Source of the DNA: Pristiophorus japonicus
Lineage: Eukaryota
Assembly (NCBI RefSeq): GCF_044704955.1
Contig: NC_091985.1
Span: 42,036,001-42,100,000 of the forward strand
Length of the DNA: 64,000 nucleotides
Direction of reading: 5' to 3'
Positions 1 to 58,653 of the stretch are shown one piece after another. Position numbers and translations under genes: made by a program. The number at the start of each line of letters is the position of its first letter. Position 1 is the first letter of the stretch. Below the pieces are notes generated by a model. That model was given only the letters and a program-made list of their open reading frames with translations, ran no database searches and was not told the DNA's origin.

Positions 1-126
1 AAGGGGTATGGAGAGAAAGCAGGAAAGGGGTACTGAGATGAATGATTAGCCATGATCTTATTGAATGGTGGTGCAGGCTCGAAGGGCCGAATGGCCTACT
101 CCTGCACCTATTTTCTATGTTTTTAT
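1..126 (+). mobile_element. CR1 LINE 3' end
   Basis: Contains AAGGGGTATGGAGAGAAAGCAGG...GGCCGAATGGCCTACTCCTGCACCTATTTTCTATGT, the same 3' UTR and (TTTCTATG)n tail as the CR1 copies ending at 15480, 38569 and 44049. Confidence 0.9.
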
Positions 127-346
127 TTGCTTCACGGGTTCTTTGCTTAAGAATTCATAGCAACACATTGCTATTAAGAACTAGTTGGTTTATTAATAAC
201 GGTTTAACAATCACACTACTCATTAGCAGTTCATCCACTAGGCATACCTCATCGTGGATGACCTAGGCCCAACTGACTGGGGTTTTATTGAGTTTTGTGA
301 ACACCATGTGCCTGGCTAAGCCACTCACAATGCAATAGCTCTACAA

Positions 347-1214
347 CTATTTTGTTGTAATCTGTAAAACATAAATCGTTAACTCAAATGCCCCCTGATT
401 AAAGTGGGGGGGGGGGGGTACTAAAACAGAAACTTTCAAACAAGTGCCCCCTTGTTTTTTGTTTATTTTTGTTTTGTTTTGAGGACACCAACACACAATT
501 TATACAAGTGCCCCCTGGCTAAAGGGGGGGGGGGGAGGGGAGCACTAAAACTGACACAATAAACAAATTAAATTTTGGACATTAATTCAAATCAAAATTT
601 GGTTGCCGGGGTTGATGATGCACTCCAGTCCCTCCGGCACCCACCTCTCGCGGAAGGCCGCGAGCGTACCGGTGGACACCGCGTGCTCCATCTCCAGGGA
701 CACCCTGGCTCGGATGTAACCGTGGAAGAGAGGCAGTCAGTCGAGCTGAACGACCCCCTCGACCGCCCGCTGCCTGGACCGGCTGATGGCCCCCTTGGCT
801 GTGCCCAGGAGCAGTCCTACGAGGAGGCTTTCCGACCTGCCCGCTCCCCTCCGCACAGGGTGCCCAAAGATCAGGAGGGTGGGAGTGATGTGCAACCAGA
901 ATTTGTGGAGCAGCTCCTTCAAATATTGGAATATGGGCTGCAACCTCACACATTCAATAAAAATGTGGAACACGGACTCTTCCAGACCGCAGAAATTGCA
1001 GGCGGCCTGGGAGTCTGTGAACAGACTTAAAAACTTATTGGACGGGACTGCTCCGTGCAACAGCCTCCAGGCCAAGTTCCCAATAAATAAAGGAGGACTT
1101 CCGTGTAGAGTGCACTCCGTTGGGGACCCCCGCCTCCTCCGGACGGCAAGATGGTGCGCCATGGCGCGTCCAGATGGCAGACGAGGAAGGCAACATGGAG
1201 AGTGTGCAAGAGCA
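347..1214 (-). mobile_element. Tx1-clade (L1 group) LINE, 5'-truncated: ORF2 C-terminus plus 3' UTR
   Basis: Translation gives LAWRLLHGAV...CNFCGLEESVFHIFIEC (CX2CX8HX4C knuckle typical of L1/Tx1 ORF2). Frameshift and stop are present. Flanked by target copies at 332-346 and 1215-1229. Confidence 0.85.
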
Positions 1215-1229
1215 GCAACAGCTCTACAA

Positions 1230-1507
1230 CTACTTTCATTGGAAAACAATAAATCAAGTGCCCCCTGATTAAAGGGGGGGACACACCAAACATTTTCAAA
1301 CAAGTGCCCCCTTGTTTTTTTTGTTTTTTTGGGAGGGTTTTTTTGAGGACACTGAAACACAAATTATACAAGTGCACCCTGGCTAAAAGCAGGAGGGGGG
1401 GGGGACTAATACCGGCAAATTAAACAAATTTAAATCCGCGATTGAACCAGGGAGCTTTAGCTCTTCAGTCTAAAGCTCTTCCAACTGAGCTAGTCCGGCC
1501 CGACAGC
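1230..1507 (-). mobile_element. SINE: tRNA-Phe-derived head plus Tx1 3'-UTR-derived tail (copy 1)
   Basis: Head is 1432-1499, preceded by an 8-nt leader GCTGTCGG. The tail has the same AAGTGCCCCC...GGGG stem-loop series as the Tx1 3' UTRs at 347-590 and 1522-1745. Flanked by target copies at 1215-1229 and 1508-1521. Confidence 0.8.
1432..1499 (-). pseudogene. tRNA-Phe(GAA)-derived sequence (SINE head)
   Basis: GCCGGACTAGCTCAGTTGGAAGAGCTTTAGACTGAAGAGCTAAAGCTCCCTGGTTCAATCGCGGATTT matches vertebrate tRNA-Phe at 59/68 by manual alignment. A and B boxes are intact; the 3' acceptor strand is incomplete. Confidence 0.85.
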
Positions 1508-1521
1508 GCAACAGCTCTACA

Positions 1522-2370
1522 GCTCTTTTGGGGAAAACATAATAAATTAAATCAAGTGCCCCCCGATCTGGGGGACACTCCAAACACTTTTCATGTGCCC
1601 TTTTTTTGTTTTTTTTTTTGGTGATTTTTGTGGGGTTTTTTGGGGCATTAAAATCATAATTTTTCAAGTGCCCCCTATAAAAGGGGAGGAGGACACTAAA
1701 AATCCGGCAATTAAACAAATTAAACTTTAAAACATGTAAAATCAAATTAAAATTTGGTTGCCGGGGGTGATGATGCACTCCAGTCCCTCCGGTGCCCACC
1801 TCTCGCGGAAGGCCGCGAGCGTACCGGTGGACACCGCGTGCTCCATCTCCAAGGACACCCTGGACCGGATGTAAGAGCAGAAGAGAGGCAGGCAGTCGAG
1901 CTGAACGACCCCCTCGACCACCCGCTGCCTGGACCGGCTGATGGCACCCTTGGCCGTGCCCAGGAGCAGTCCTACGAGGAGGCCCTCGGACCTACCCGCT
2001 CCCCTCCGCACAGGGTGCCCAAAGATCAGGAGTGTGGGACTGAAGTGTAACCAGAAATTGAGGAGCAGCCCCTTTAAATAATGAAACAGGGGCTGCAACC
2101 TCGCATACTCCATAAAAACGTGGAACACGGACTCCTCCAGACCGCAGAAATTGCAGGTGGCCTGGGAGCCCGTGAACCGACTTAAAAATTTATTGCACGG
2201 GACTGCTCCGTGCACCACCCTCCAGGCCAAGTCCCTGATAAATAGTGGGAGGACTCCTGCGTAGAGTGCACTCCATCGGGGACCCCCGCCTCCTCCGGAC
2301 GGCAAGATGGTGCGCCATGGCGCGTCCAGATGGCAGACGAGGAAGGCAACGTGGAGAGTGTGCAGGAGCA
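1522..2370 (-). mobile_element. Tx1-clade LINE, 5'-truncated (second copy, different 3' UTR)
   Basis: Open frame ...DLAWRVVHGAVPCNKFL...CNFCGLEESVFHVFMEY...NQILI* with stop at 1742. Flanked by target copies at 1508-1521 and 2371-2385. Confidence 0.85.
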
Positions 2371-2385
2371 GCAACAGCTCTACAA

Positions 2386-2661
2386 CTACTTTCATTGGAA
2401 AACAATAAATCAAGTGCCCCCTGATTAAAGCGGGGGACACACCAAACATTTTCAAACAAGTGCCCCCTTGTTTTTTTGTTTTTCTGGGAGGGTTTTTTTG
2501 AGGGCACTGAAACACAAATTATACAAGTGCACCCTGGCTAAAAGCAGGGGAGGGGGGCACTAAAACCGGCAAATTAAACAAATTTAAATCCGCGATTGAA
2601 CCAGGGAGTTTTAGCTCTTCAGTCTAAAGCTCTCCCAACTGAGCTAGTACGGCCCGACAGC
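2386..2661 (-). mobile_element. SINE: tRNA-Phe head plus Tx1 tail (copy 2)
   Basis: Near-identical to 1230-1507. Flanked by target copies at 2371-2385 and 2662-2676. Confidence 0.8.
2586..2653 (-). pseudogene. tRNA-Phe(GAA)-derived sequence (SINE head, copy 2)
   Basis: GCCGTACTAGCTCAGTTGGGAGAGCTTTAGACTGAAGAGCTAAAACTCCCTGGTTCAATCGCGGATTT; anticodon loop CTGAAGA. Confidence 0.85.
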
Positions 2662-2799
2662 GCAACAGCTCTACAAACCTGTGAGTATACCCAGAGGTGC
2701 ATACATTACACTATTGGTGCTGCAGAGCAAGCAGTAATCCAGAGTCAGAGGAATAGAGCATGTGATCTGGCATGTATGGTTGGAAAATGTTCCCCAGAT

Positions 2800-3500
2800 T
2801 GGAGGAACAGCGGAGTGAGGCCATGGAGGGATTTGAAGATGAAAGCAACAATCGTGAAATCAATTCACCAGAACACAGGGACTCTGTGGACTCTGGATAG
2901 AACAAGGGCGACAAGTGAGCAGGATTTGGTGTTGAAAAAAGATTTAGGTGGAAGAGTTGTGGATTAGCTGAAGTTTGTGATGGTGGAGTTTGGAAGACTG
3001 GAAGAGTACTGTTTGAGAAACCACAAGGAGACAGATGGAAGGAGATACAGGTAGAAATTGGAAATTATTTTTAATAAGGAACAGTAAATCTGTGGAATAG
3101 ATTCTAATAGAAAGTAATGAAAGCAATGATGATTAACTCATTTTAAAAAGATCCATATGAATAACCAGTTAAGAAAACAATTCTAGGCATAAGCGATCAA
3201 ATCCTATGGCTACCACAATGGCTCAACTGAGCCAGACAGACCAGGACAGTCGCAGGATTGAATCCCAATCTGTACTGTTAGGATCTTAGCTGAGGTGTTG
3301 GATGGCAGTTAGAGAGCTATAATTAGCCTCAGCAGCCCAGCTAATCCACAACTCTTTGGCAAGTCCTTTTCAACACCAAAGTCCTGCTCACTCATCACCC
3401 TTGATCTATCCAAAGTCCACAGACTCTTTGTGTTCCAGTGAATTGATTTCAAGATTGTTGCTTTCACCTTCAGGGCTTGGAAAATCACTCCGTGTTCCTG
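2800..3500. repeat. Imperfect inverted repeat pair (~2800-2970 and 3338-~3500), possibly L2-derived
   Basis: GAAGAGTTGTGGATTAGCTG pairs with CAGCTAATCCACAACTCTT. The opposite-strand translations are similar (KATIVKSIHQNTGTLWTLDR vs KATILKSIHWNTKSLWTLDR). Confidence 0.7.
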
Positions 3501-25600: not shown

Positions 25601-28600
25601 AAGAGGGGACAGAGTGTAGTGTAACAAAATTTGCAGATGACACAAAGATTAGTGGGAAAGCGGGTTGTGTAGAGGACACAGAGAGGCTGCAAAGAGATTT
25701 AGATAGGTTAAGCGAATGGGCTACGGTTTGGCAGATGGAATACAATGTCGGAAAATGTAAGGTCATCCACCTTGGAAAAAAAAAACAGTAAAAGGGAATA
25801 TTATTTGAATGGGGAGAAATTACAACATGCTGCGGTGCAGAGGGACCTGGGGGTCCTTGTGCATGAATCCCAAAAAGTTAGTTTGCAGGTGCAGCAGGTA
25901 ATCAGGAAGGCGAATGGAATGTTGGCCTTCATTGTGAGAGGGATTGAGTACAAAAGCAGGGAGATCCTGCTGCAACTGTACAGGGTATTGGTGAGGCCGC
26001 ACCTGGAGTACTGCGTGCAGTTTTGGTCACCTTACTTAAGGAAGGATATACTAGCTTTGGAGGGGGTACAGAGACGCTTTACTAGGCTGATTCCGGAGAT
26101 GAGGGGGTTACCTTATGATGATAGATTGAGTAGACTGGGTCTTTACTCGTTGGAGTTCAGAAGGATGAGGGGTGATCTTATAGAAACATTTAAAATAATG
26201 AAAGGGATAGACAAGATCGAGGCAGAGAGATTGTTTCCACTGGTCGGGGAGACTAGAACTAGGGGGCACAGCCTCAAAATATGGGGGAGCCAATTTAAAA
26301 CCGAGCTGAGAAGGAATTTCTTCTCCCAGAGGGTTGTGAATCTGTGGAATTCTCTGCCCAAGGAAGCAGTTGAGGCTTGCTCATTGAATGTATTCAAATC
26401 ACAGATAGATAGATTTTTAACCAATAAGGGAATTAAGGGTTATGGGAAGCGGGCGGGTAAGTGGAGCCGAGTCCACGGCCAGATCAGCCATGATCTTGTT
26501 GAATGGCGGAGCAGGCCCGAGGGGCTAGGTGGCCTACTCCTGTTCCTAATTCTTATGTTCTTATATTCTTGCTGACTTTGACGTCTGTATTCGACACGAT
26601 TATTCAAATCAGGTTGGACAAGAGAGAGCCTGGTCTTGAGACCTCTCCATCAATAGTTCAGCAGGGGAGACCCCGGTAAGCGTATGGGGTCTTGTCCTGT
26701 AACTGAGCAATATGCATGACAAGCGAGTTTGCAGTGAACCTTGAGTTACACGTTTCATACTCTGCTTCATGGTTTGGACTGCACGCTCTGCTTATCCATT
26801 GGATGCGGGTTTGAATGGTGCTGACCTCACATGTTTGATACCATTGAGTTTCATGAACTCTTGAAACTCCATACTGGTGAAGCAAGATCCGTTGTCAATT
26901 ACAACGATGTCAGGCAGACCATGCGTAGCAAACATGACACGAAGGCTCTCAATGGTAGCTGTGGATGTGCTGGATGACAGGATTGTACACTCTATCCACT
27001 TGGAATAAGCATCCACCACAACTAAGAATATCTTTCCCAGGAAGGGACCTGCAAAGTCGATGTGGATCCTGCACCATGGTTTGGATGGCCACGACTGCAG
27101 ACTCAGCGGCGATTCCGCTGGTGCTTTACTAAGCTGCATGCAAGTGTTGCGCTGATGCACACGTGATTCCAGATCAGAGTCAATTCCAGGCCACCATGCA
27201 TGAGACCTGGCAATGGCTTTCATCATGACAATACCAGGATGCGTGCTATGTAGATCATGCATAAAATTCTCTCTGCCTTTCTTGGGCATAACAACACGAT
27301 TACCCCACAATATACAATCTGATTGAATGGATAGTTCATCTTTGCGACGGATGTAAGGTTTGGTCTCCTCACACATTTGCTTGGGTATGGCAGACCAATC
27401 ACCACTAAGGATACAACGTTTCACAACCGATAATATCGGGTCCTGGCTGATCCAGGTCTTAACTTGTTGGGCCGTGACAGGGGTTCCTTCTCTTTCAAAA
27501 GCATCCATGACTAACAGTAGGTTCGCCGGTTGTGGCGTTTCCACCTCCGGTGTGGACAACGGCAGATGGCTCAATGCATTGGCACAATTCTCAGTGCCAG
27601 GTCTATGGCGAATGACATAATCTCAGGCAGATAATGTCAGCATCCACCTCTGGATGCGGGATGATGCATTGGTATTGATGCCTTTGTTTTCCGAAAACAA
27701 TGAAATGAGTGGCTTGTGATCTGTTTCCAGTTCAAACCGAAGACCAAACAGGTACTGATGCATCTTTTTAACCCCATACACATAGGCTAGTGCTTCTTTC
27801 TCTACCATGCTGTAGGCTCTTTCCACCTTTGACAAACTTTTTGAAGCATATGCAACAGATTGTAATTTGCCCGACATTAGCTTGTTGGAGCACGCAACCA
27901 ACTCCATATGATGAAGCATTACAGGTCAATACTAGACGCTTACATGGATCATAATGTACCAGCAGCTTGTTGGAGCAAAGCAAATTAGTAGTTTTCTCAA
28001 AAGCTCTACCTTGAGATGCACCCCAAACCCAGTTGTCGCCTTTTATTAGCAGCATGTGTAGTGGATCTAATAAGGTGCTCAATCTAGGTAAGAAATTACC
28101 GAAGTAGTTGAGTAGACCAAGGAACGAACGCAGCTCCGTCACATTCTGAGGTGCCATGAAGATGCACTTCTAGTGTTTCAGTCTGAGTCCCACTTTGTCC
28201 AGACAATGCAGAACCTTTTCCAGGTTGTTCAGATGTTCGGCGGAGTCACAACCTGTGACCAGTATGTCATCTTGTAACATGACGGTTCTGGGGACAGACT
28301 TCAGTAGTGTTCCTCTGAAATATGGCTGCAGCCGAGCGAATTCCCAAAGAGCACCTGTTGTAGATAAACAGTCCTTTAATGAGTGTTGATGCACGTAAGT
28401 TTCTTCGACATGTCGACCAGCTCCTGTGTCATGAAGGCCGACGTCAGATCCAGTTTTGTGAATGACTTACCCCCCGGCTAGCATTGCACACAGGTCATCA
28501 GCTTTCGGTAACGGGTATTGATCCTGTTTCGAAACTCGGTTGATCGTAACCTTGTCGTCTCCACAAATCCTGACAGTGCCATCACTTTTCAACATGGGAA

Positions 28601-57215: not shown

Positions 57216-58653
57216 ATGTAACACCCCTATTTAAAAAAGGAGGCAGACAAAAAGCAGGAAACTATACACCAGTTAGCCTAACATCTGTTGTTGGTGAAAT
57301 GCTAGAGTCCATTATTAAGGAAGTAGTAACGGGACATTTGGAAAAGCATAATTCAATCAAACAGAGTCAGCATGGTTTTATGAAAGGGAAATCATGTTTG
57401 ACAAATTTGCTGGAGTTCTTTAAGGATGTAACAAGCAGGTTGGATAAGGGGGAACCAGTGGATGTGGTGTATTTGGATTTCCAGAAGGCATTCGATAAGG
57501 TGCCATATAAAAGGTTACTGCACAAGATAAAAGTTCACAGGGTTGGGGGTAATATATTAGCATGGATAGAGGATTGGCTAACTAACAGAAAACAAAGAAT
57601 TGGGATAAATGGGTCATTTTCCGGTTGGCAAACAGTAACTAGTGGGATGCTGCAGGGATCGGTGCTGGGGCCTCAACTATTTACAATCTATATTAATGAC
57701 TTGGATGAAGGGACCGAATGTAATGTAGCCAAGTTTGCTGGGAAAGCAATTGTGATGAGGACACAAAAAATCTGCAAGTGATATAGTAAGGCTAAGTGAG
57801 TGGAAAAAATTTGGCAGATGGAGTATAATGTGGGAAAATGTGAGGTTATCCACTTTGACAGAAATAATAGAAAAGCAAATTATAATTTAAATGGAGAAAA
57901 ATTGCAAAGTGCTGCAGTACAGAGAGACCTGGGGGTCCTTGTGCATGAAACACAAAAAGTTAGTATGCAGGTACAGCAAGTAATCAGGAAGGCAAATGGA
58001 ATGTTGTCCTTTATTGCAAGGGGGAAGAGTATAAAAGCAGAGAAGTTCTGCTACAACTGTACAGGGTATTGGTGAGGCCACACCTGGAGTACTGTGTACA
58101 GTTTTGGTCTCCGTATTTAAGGAAGGATATACTTGCATTGGAGGCTGTTCAGAGAAAGTTCACTAGGTTGATTCCGGAGATCAGGGGGTTGACTTATGAA
58201 GACAGATTGAGTAGGTTGGGCCTATGCTCACTGGAGTTCAGAAGAATGAGAGGTGATTTTATCGAAACATGTAAGATAATGAGGGGGCTCGACAAGGTGG
58301 ATGCAGAGAGGATATTTCCCCTCATTGGGGAAACTAAAACTGAGGGACATAGTCTGAGAATAAGGGGCCGCCCATTTAAAACGGAGATGAGGAGGAATTT
58401 CTTCTCTCTGAGGGTCTATGAAATCTATGGAATTCTTTGTCCCAGAGAGCTGTGGAGGCTGGGTCATTGAATATATTTAAAGCGGAGATAGACAGATTTT
58501 TGTGCGATAGGAAATAAAGGGTTATGGAGAGCAGGCAGGGAAGTGGAGCTGAGTCCATGATCAGATCAGCCATGATCTTGTTGAATGGCAGAGCAGGCTC
58601 GAGGAGCCGGGTGGCCTACTCCTGCTCCTATTTATTTTATTCTTATGTTCTTA
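57216..58653 (+). mobile_element. CR1 LINE, 5'-truncated
   Basis: RT motifs in ORFs 57299-57781 and 58069-58470; (TTCTTATG)n tail. Confidence 0.92.

What the first reader, a model, noticed from the sequence alone, without database searches (positions are those of the whole stretch)
125..2710. Target-specific Tx1 LINE and partner SINE stacked at one 15-bp site inside another retroelement's LTR
Seen: the motif GCAA(C/T)AGCTCTACA(A) occurs five times (332-346, 1215-1229, 1508-1521, 2371-2385, 2662-2676). It bounds four same-orientation inserts in the order Tx1, SINE, Tx1, SINE. Removing them rejoins a ~255-bp LTR-like element starting TGTAATGTAT. Established: Tx1-clade LINEs are often sequence-specific (Xenopus Tx1L/Tx2L insert into DNA transposons; Keno targets U2 snRNA, Mutsu 5S rDNA, Dewa tRNA arrays), and TSDs regenerate the target so tandem arrays can build up. 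Inference: this family targets an LTR retrotransposon's LTR, giving a three-tier parasite chain (SINE on LINE on LTR element). I do not know of a description of this target.
Basis: partly seen in the sequence, partly recalled or inferred. Interest (0 to 1): 0.85.

Follow-up and report, generated by a model that had tools for sequence, protein, structure and literature searches.

The report
Site-specific LINE inherits neighbour's 5' end
A jumping gene of the Tx1 type has landed thousands of times on one short spot inside another jumping gene's terminal repeat, and stacked copies usually begin at exactly the same base although they come from different templates, likely because each newcomer finishes its insertion by pairing with the copy already there; the supposed partner SINE is a one-off tRNA fusion.

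Summary
Observation confirmed; interpretation half right. The five 15-mers are copies of a target site inside the LTR of a decayed Gypsy element. Empty LTRs exist, 39 of 70 sampled sites carry Tx1, and 23 of 30 Tx1 tails picked without the site end on it. Tx1 families that prefer LTR elements are already in print (crocodilians). The 'SINE' is no family: a pre-tRNA-Phe fused to the Tx1 3' UTR, found only in this window and copied once.

Likely the new cDNA pairs with the resident copy, which sets its 5' end; the window's A-B-A'-B' order is a long-tract case. (2) A young sister lineage, 95% identical in ORF2 and with intact ORFs, uses a different site inside a CR1-like LINE (15,664 junctions) and keeps a relic of the LTR site at its 5' end: a likely recent target switch with about 37 candidate residues.

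The parts
2677..2710 (-). 5' 34 bp of the host Gypsy-type LTR (starts TGTAATGTAT; a short inverted repeat lies just before the site)
2662..2676 (-). Upstream-most copy of the target site, native 5' flank kept; likely the entry point of later insertions
2386..2661 (-). Unit A: pre-tRNA-Phe (7-nt leader 2660-2654, tRNA nt 1-68) fused to a Tx1 3' UTR; likely a DNA copy of 1230-1507 (267/276 alike)
2371..2385 (-). Target-site copy
1523..2370 (-). Unit B: 5'-truncated Tx1, open for the last 207 aa of ORF2 (stop 1742-1744), 3' UTR ending AAAAGAG; first 110 nt 106/110 like unit B', next 140 nt 122/139; groups with younger copies
1508..1522 (-). Target-site copy (first base C instead of T)
1230..1507 (-). 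Unit A': the pre-tRNA-Phe/Tx1-UTR chimera, likely the original
1215..1229 (-). Target-site copy
347..1214 (-). Unit B': 5'-truncated Tx1 with the same 5' start as unit B, one frameshift and one stop, a different 3' UTR ending AAAATAG; longer end branch, likely the first insertion
332..346 (-). Downstream-most target-site copy
125..331 (-). 3' part of the host LTR (two AATAAA), last ~7 nt missing
1..124 (+). 3' tail of a CR1-like LINE that cuts off the LTR end (runs on upstream of the window)

Best explanation
A Tx1-clade LINE inserts at one ~14-bp site in the LTR of a decayed Gypsy element, and when the site is already occupied the newcomer likely enters at the upstream copy of the site and would complete its second strand by pairing its cDNA with the resident copy just downstream, so that it takes over the resident's 5' end. 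Shown: site specificity, empty hosts, shared 5' ends between neighbours, different bodies and 3' UTRs, rare variants shared mainly in the first 30 nt. Inferred: entry at the upstream site; cDNA pairing with the resident's top strand, trimming of the unpaired cDNA and priming from a cut inside the resident. The copied tract is usually short (tens of bases). It can be long: it may span a small intervening insert and give A-B-A'-B' as in this window, or supply kilobases of 5' sequence to a prematurely ended cDNA. Inferred history of the window: B' first; then a template-switch chimera of Tx1 tail and pre-tRNA-Phe (A'); then B, whose insertion duplicated site + A' + site + about 110 nt of B'.
For: Site: 3,339 exact LTR-5'+site and 9,018 exact tail+site junctions, reversed-pattern controls 0; 23 of 30 tails sampled without the site are followed by it; 29 of 70 sites empty, 39 occupied, 2 unclear. 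Shared starts: 46 of 55 mapped adjacent pairs against 37 of 3,570 between stacks; site-element microhomology is 0-1 nt in 70 of 85 junctions, so hot spots do not explain it. Not DNA duplicates: neighbours 0.89 identical against 0.87 for random copies; the neighbour is the best 3' UTR match in only 3 of 39 pairs, median rank 41 of about 122. Shared rare variants 24 of 117 in the first 30 nt, 66 of 1,081 beyond 60 nt (p 1e-6), 2.5% in controls. Young sister stacks: same start, differences from nt 12-65 onward, bodies as close or closer to copies elsewhere. Short-UTR, long-branch type lies downstream in 10 of 10 mixed pairs. A-B-A'-B' with a high-identity A and B start also in L007, L013, L272. 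Two full-length units whose 5' part matches the downstream neighbour and whose 3' part has no match in another lineage of the stack. R1 tandems are proposed to grow at the 5' duplication (PMC2718515).
Against: No insertion was watched; all is read from fixed copies in one assembly. A second polarity test (distance to a young intact copy) was flat: 22 upstream closer, 18 downstream closer, p 0.64. 9 of 55 pairs do not share a start, and 38 of 93 adjacent pairs could not be mapped. Sharing of rare variants stays above control along the whole body (about 6% against 2.5%), which gene conversion would also give. Some young stacks hold plain DNA duplicates and one clear unequal-crossover hybrid (I_332Mb). 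Four young truncated stacks (E-H) were picked for even spacing, so their tally (8 of 9 truncated pairs share a start, one of them a near-duplicate) is biased.
Confidence: 0.68

Rival explanations
1. Stacks grow by DNA-level tandem duplication or unequal crossover; later gene conversion from dispersed copies or free cDNA replaces the bodies and 3' UTRs and leaves the 5' junction.
For: Identical units (0-4 differences in 7 kb) and an unequal-crossover hybrid occur in young stacks; rare-variant sharing is somewhat raised along the body.
Against: Conversion would have to replace nearly the whole unit up to the 3' site copy in most pairs (neighbour best UTR match in 3 of 39); it gives no reason for the short-UTR type to lie downstream in 10 of 10 pairs; the window's order would need a further deletion.
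Confidence: 0.2
2. Independent insertions end at the same base because of fixed stop points on the RNA or microhomology with the site.
For: Microhomology at 5' junctions is described for R1/R2; 15 of 85 junctions show 2-3 nt.
Against: Starts are spread over ORF2 and recur between stacks in only about 1% of pairs; all stacks share the same site, so a site-driven hot spot would recur between them.
Confidence: 0.03
3. Local re-insertion: a truncated resident is transcribed and its own RNA, or an RNA switching template between resident and a full-length transcript, is inserted next to it.
For: Template switches to small RNAs are common at this site (tRNA- and U6-headed inserts), so the enzyme does jump templates; a jump onto a local transcript would also give the same 5' end.
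Against: Needs a transcript that starts exactly at each resident's junction at dozens of loci; no RNA data; pure self re-insertion would keep the same UTR.
Confidence: 0.07
4. One reading: four independent insertions, two of them by a partner SINE family.
For: The unit looks like a SINE (tRNA head + LINE tail); SINEU of crocodilians shares its target with Tx1.
Against: A diagnostic 21-mer of the head is found twice, both here; the 4 one-mismatch hits go on as tRNA genes; the head keeps the leader of tandem tRNA-Phe genes; other heads at the site are different tRNAs.
Confidence: 0.02

Closest known systems
Crocodilian Tx1-8_Crp and Tx1-4_AMi, Tx1-Mar group with SINEU (Kojima 2015, PMC4494074; passages and two of five text parts read, supplements not available)
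   Same: Tx1-clade LINEs that prefer other transposons, two of them LTR retrotransposons; tandem insertions around one duplication; small-RNA heads added at 5' ends.
   Different: Other host lineage and, as far as the text goes, no stated site; no true SINE here; in the parts read, nothing on neighbours sharing 5' ends. Whether their LTR site resembles this one lies in supplements I could not see.
Xenopus Tx1L (YTX2; P0023)
   Same: ORF2 54% identical over residues 1-800, 643 of 1,293 aligned residues overall; inserts into another transposon (piggyBac-type Tx1D).
   Different: Target is a Gypsy LTR (and a CR1-like LINE for the sister lineage), not a DNA transposon.
R1 tandem arrays of Drosophila (Stage and Eickbush 2009, PMC2718515; McGurk and Barbash 2018, PMC5932611; passages read)
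   Same: APE-type site-specific LINE, 14-bp duplication, stacks by re-insertion at the 5' duplication, later growth by unequal exchange; cDNA-target annealing gives precise 5' junctions.
   Different: There the annealing partner is co-transcribed rDNA or a few bases of microhomology; distinct truncations in dimers are taken as the sign of independent insertion. Here independent inserts mostly share the truncation.
L1 chimeras: U6/L1 template switches and cDNA recombination with resident L1s
   Same: Small-RNA heads on LINE tails (discussed); homology-driven joining of new cDNA to a resident copy with duplication of the stretch between (recalled, Gilbert and co-workers; paper not held).
   Different: Recalled as rare outcomes for L1; here the usual outcome at an occupied site, because specificity puts a homolog next to the cut.

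Membership tests
Tx1 clade LINE | Two ORFs; ORF2 with APE endonuclease, RT and C-terminal zinc motif | tested here: met
   Natural intact sister copy: Exo_endo_phos, RVT_1, zf-RVT (below cut-off); ORF1 about 700 aa. LTR-site full-length copies align end to end at 86-90% but none of 13 has both ORFs open.
Tx1 clade LINE | ORF2 closer to Tx1L than to L1 | tested here: met
   E 1e-277 and 54% to Tx1L against E 1e-83 to human L1 ORF2p; window fragment 90% to the sister ORF2, 44% to Tx1L. No tree with named Tx1 families was built.
Tx1 clade LINE | Target preference (Kojima's cut-off: over 20% of flanks) with a constant duplication | tested here: met
   23 of 30 tails on the site, one of them doubtful; duplication about 14 bp.
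Tx1 clade LINE | Endonuclease nicks the site in vitro | not testable with these tools
   Needs biochemistry.
SINE | tRNA-derived head with LINE-derived tail | tested here: met
SINE | Dispersed multi-copy family from a master copy | tested here: not met
   Only the two window copies; DNA searches score only the top 40 candidates, the pattern search is whole-genome with 1 mismatch.
Ty3/Gypsy LTR retrotransposon (host) | TG...CA LTRs, short duplication, primer site and purine tract, paired LTRs | tested here: met
   5-bp flanking repeats read by eye in about 10 solo LTRs, not tallied; 45 LTR-end + primer-site junctions; shared internal sequence and purine tract before the second LTR.
Ty3/Gypsy LTR retrotransposon (host) | Order RT - RNase H - integrase | tested here: met
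   L308: RVT_1, RT_RNaseH_2, rve in that order in separate open frames; the gag-like frame had no Pfam match. No RT tree, so Gypsy rests on order and family type.

The most novel reading that the evidence does not exclude
Occupied target sites remember element length: the resident copy dictates the 5' end of every later insertion, so a truncated resident traps newcomers as dead fragments and a full-length resident repairs them into multi-copy full-length stacks. The same lineage has just switched host site, from a dying Gypsy LTR to an abundant CR1-like LINE, with 95% ORF2 identity, an unchanged endonuclease hairpin loop and changes clustered after the RT thumb, so target choice may be set partly outside the endonuclease.
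Probability: 0.45. Interest if true: 0.82.

Novelty: new variant of a known kind. Interest (0 to 1): 0.64.

Why it matters
How LINEs finish their second strand and join the 5' end is stated to be unclear in a 2025 review (PMC12503042). Here thousands of natural events point to one rule, and intact copies exist to test it. It also warns that identical 5' truncations do not prove DNA duplication, nor a tRNA head a SINE. The pair of sister lineages with different sites and a short list of fixed differences is a rare handle on how site specificity changes, which bears on site-specific retrotransposon tools.

Tried and rejected
ARAGORN and Rfam found no tRNA in the window; the head was identified through the genome's own tRNA genes. 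The 15-mer as part of the element: rejected but for its first base, since empty LTRs carry it and private variants run through all copies of one stack (L003). Identity profile alone could not place copied tracts in old copies; rare variants were used instead. Polarity by distance to a young copy: no signal. Polarising the target switch with Tx1L, turtle and fish proteins: uninformative, 15 against 10 sites, 13 unresolved. Selection on ORF2 851-975: 14 of 37 replacement differences cluster there (scan p 0.0002, window chosen afterwards) but so do 7 of 32 silent ones (Fisher p 0.19), so a recombined tract is as likely. The tree is midpoint-drawn, holds three long rows and had not settled; no one-clade test was run. 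No RNA holder listed. Contigs of four runs did not span the stack and neither confirm nor question it. Paper searches for this family, target or rule listed nothing on it; the library lacks most subscription papers and Repbase, so it may be catalogued there. Christensen 2000 and Gilbert 2005 were not held. No earlier scan notes for this genome or sequence.

Full report
Observation. The motif is at the five stated places and beyond chance. Read on the minus strand the order is LTR start, site, A (276 bp), site, B (848), site, A' (278), site, B' (868), site, LTR rest. B and B' are the end of an ORF2 and a 3' UTR. B is open for 207 aa, 90% like an intact ORF2 of the same genome and 44% like Xenopus Tx1L. 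The genome is 5.9 Gb; its repeats look like a cartilaginous fish (recalled, not tested).

The site belongs to the host. LTR start + site occurs 3,339 times exactly, tail + site 9,018 times, reversed controls 0. Of 70 LTR-start sites taken in order along contig C1 (the first 70 of 100 listed), 29 go straight on into the LTR, 39 into Tx1, 2 are unclear. Solo LTRs have TG...CA ends and 5-bp flanking repeats (read by eye). 45 LTR ends run into a primer site; of 18 fetched, most share internal sequence, several end in a purine tract and a second LTR, and L308 has RT, RNase H and integrase in that order: a decayed Gypsy-type parent. Of the first 30 of 2,397 exact UTR-motif hits, found without the site, 23 are followed by it within 3 mismatches (one doubtful); the other 7 all show TG, five TGTA, at the same place. 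63 exact junctions carry an intact 5' end; seven fetched copies are 7.1 kb between two sites, and none of 13 has both ORFs open. The first T of the 15-mer is likely the element's last base, since sites that begin with another base still show T on the 3' side.

The 'SINE'. In a search with unit A', only the two window copies match from the head; the other 43 matches start at the UTR. The head matches tandem tRNA-Phe genes at 89-91%, with their 7-nt leader. A diagnostic 21-mer is found 6 times with up to one mismatch: twice here, four times in tRNA genes with no Tx1 tail. Site + tRNA A-box gives 15 hits: two here, at least three LTR variants, and single inserts headed by different tRNAs; L013 has a U6-like head (identity recalled). 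These are one-off template switches, a known by-product.

Shared 5' ends. All units between sites in the loci held were mapped on one natural full-length copy. After removing duplicate loci and L008/L009 (repeats of L007), 101 stacks or single units remained, with 93 adjacent pairs; 55 had both units mapped (under 3.1 kb), and 46 of these start within 3 nt, against 37 of 3,570 pairs from different stacks; 34 of 37 multi-unit stacks show it. Microhomology with the site is 0, 1, 2, 3 nt in 51, 19, 14, 1 junctions. Neighbours are hardly more alike than random copies (0.89, 0.87), and the neighbour is the best UTR match in 3 of 39 pairs. Rare variants are shared in 24 of 117 cases in the first 30 nt, 66 of 1,081 beyond 60 nt, 2.5% in controls. 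Where a ~100-nt UTR meets a ~220-nt UTR, the short one is downstream in 10 of 10 pairs, and short-UTR copies have long end branches; B groups with younger copies, B' with older. A second polarity test was flat. A-B-A'-B' recurs in L007, L013 and L272, with A and the first ~110 nt of B more alike than what follows.

Mechanism. From established target-primed reverse transcription: the bottom-strand nick primes cDNA, and the top strand must find the cDNA to prime the second strand. At an occupied site entered from the upstream copy, the DNA just past the site is a homolog of the cDNA. Inferred: cDNA pairs with it, unpaired cDNA beyond the resident's 5' end is trimmed, and a top-strand end inside the resident is extended along the cDNA. 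The product has the resident's 5' end, a tract of resident sequence and a new body. If pairing occurs one unit further down, the small unit between is duplicated: this window. Entry at the 5' duplication and cDNA-target annealing are proposed for R1; sharing of truncations is not in the passages read, and distinct truncations are treated as the mark of double insertion.

Sister lineage. An RT search gave copies 94-96% alike in 7.2-kb tandem stacks with intact ORFs (8 of 23 with both open), 54% like Tx1L. They sit at a different 14-15-bp site, antisense in the RT region of a CR1-like LINE (host class from its motifs, recalled), with 15,664 exact junctions. Two empty sites of this kind lie in the window. 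These copies form one supported group (99/94) with short branches, drawn inside the LTR-site copies on a midpoint-rooted tree, and their first 17-19 nt resemble the LTR site (11 of 12 variants reached by at most 20 of 2,000 shuffles): likely LTR first, CR1 later. ORF2 DNA is 93-96% identical between lineages; the 5' UTR and ORF1 differ more. 37 replacement and 32 silent codon differences are near-fixed: 7 replacements in the endonuclease, none in its hairpin loop (loop position recalled), 14 in 851-975, just past the point where alignment to L1 ORF2p ends. Silent changes cluster there too, so selection is not shown. In these young stacks the same rule is sharper: shared start, first differences at nt 12-65, bodies matching copies elsewhere, though four stacks were picked for even spacing. 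Long stacks also hold plain duplicates and a crossover hybrid, and two units whose 5' kilobases match the downstream neighbour while the 3' part does not.

Against what is known. Tx1 families that target other transposons, LTR elements included, and stack at the duplication are published, and earlier scan notes report like cases in other genomes (unchecked). The neighbour-set 5' end and the close target switch were not found in nine searches of an incomplete library. Papers seen: PMC4494074 (passages, text parts 3-4 of 5; supplements not available and they may name the LTR site), PMC2718515, PMC5932611, PMC3747384, PMC12503042 (passages only); others as listings only.

Verdict. Real feature; new variant of a known kind; interest 0.64.

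Noticed in passing
window 25854-25868 and 57936-57950: Two unoccupied native sites of the sister Tx1 lineage inside CR1-like LINEs.
   Followed up: partly
L350-L356 (G000:C1:9.71-9.77 Mb): Stack of nine sister-lineage units, seven full-length, 60 kb; three units nearly identical (DNA duplication or assembly), others distinct.
   Followed up: yes
L063-L090 (G000:C30:16.99-17.11 Mb): Tandem array of tRNA-Phe and tRNA-Glu genes with a 2.29-kb period; likely source of the chimera's head.
   Followed up: partly
window 2586-2653 and 1432-1499: Both head copies share about six changes from the genomic tRNA-Phe, among them positions 26 and 46, which are modified in tRNAs (recalled); possibly reverse-transcriptase misreading.
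   Followed up: no
L013:2012-2290, L159:1514-1728, L208:8500-8620, L048:1400-1500: U6-like, tRNA + 5S-like and tRNA-Tyr-like small-RNA inserts at the two target sites: the sites collect retrocopies of Pol III RNAs.
   Followed up: partly
L161, L162, L004, L148: Inserts with another 5' sequence and a Tx1 tail, 0.8-1.7 kb; perhaps an older subfamily's 5' end or internally deleted non-autonomous copies.
   Followed up: no
stacks in L129, L270, L293, L261: 3' UTR grew from about 100 to 220-260 nt by repeating a GGGGGCACTTG module; stacks preserve the sequence of subfamilies in order.
   Followed up: partly
L209, L212-L214: CR1-site copies whose tails look intermediate between the two lineages.
   Followed up: no
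window 2677-2699: Short inverted repeat in the LTR directly before the site (9-bp arms, 4-nt loop in many copies); role untested.
   Followed up: no
window 2834-2970 and 3338-3472: Inverted repeat pair, 85% complementary over 138 bp, next to the LTR.
   Followed up: no
L211, L215, L218, L224; L212-L214, L217, L223: Identical insert-plus-flank junctions repeated along the first 3 Mb of C1: larger segmental repeats, so junction counts include some DNA duplicates.
   Followed up: no
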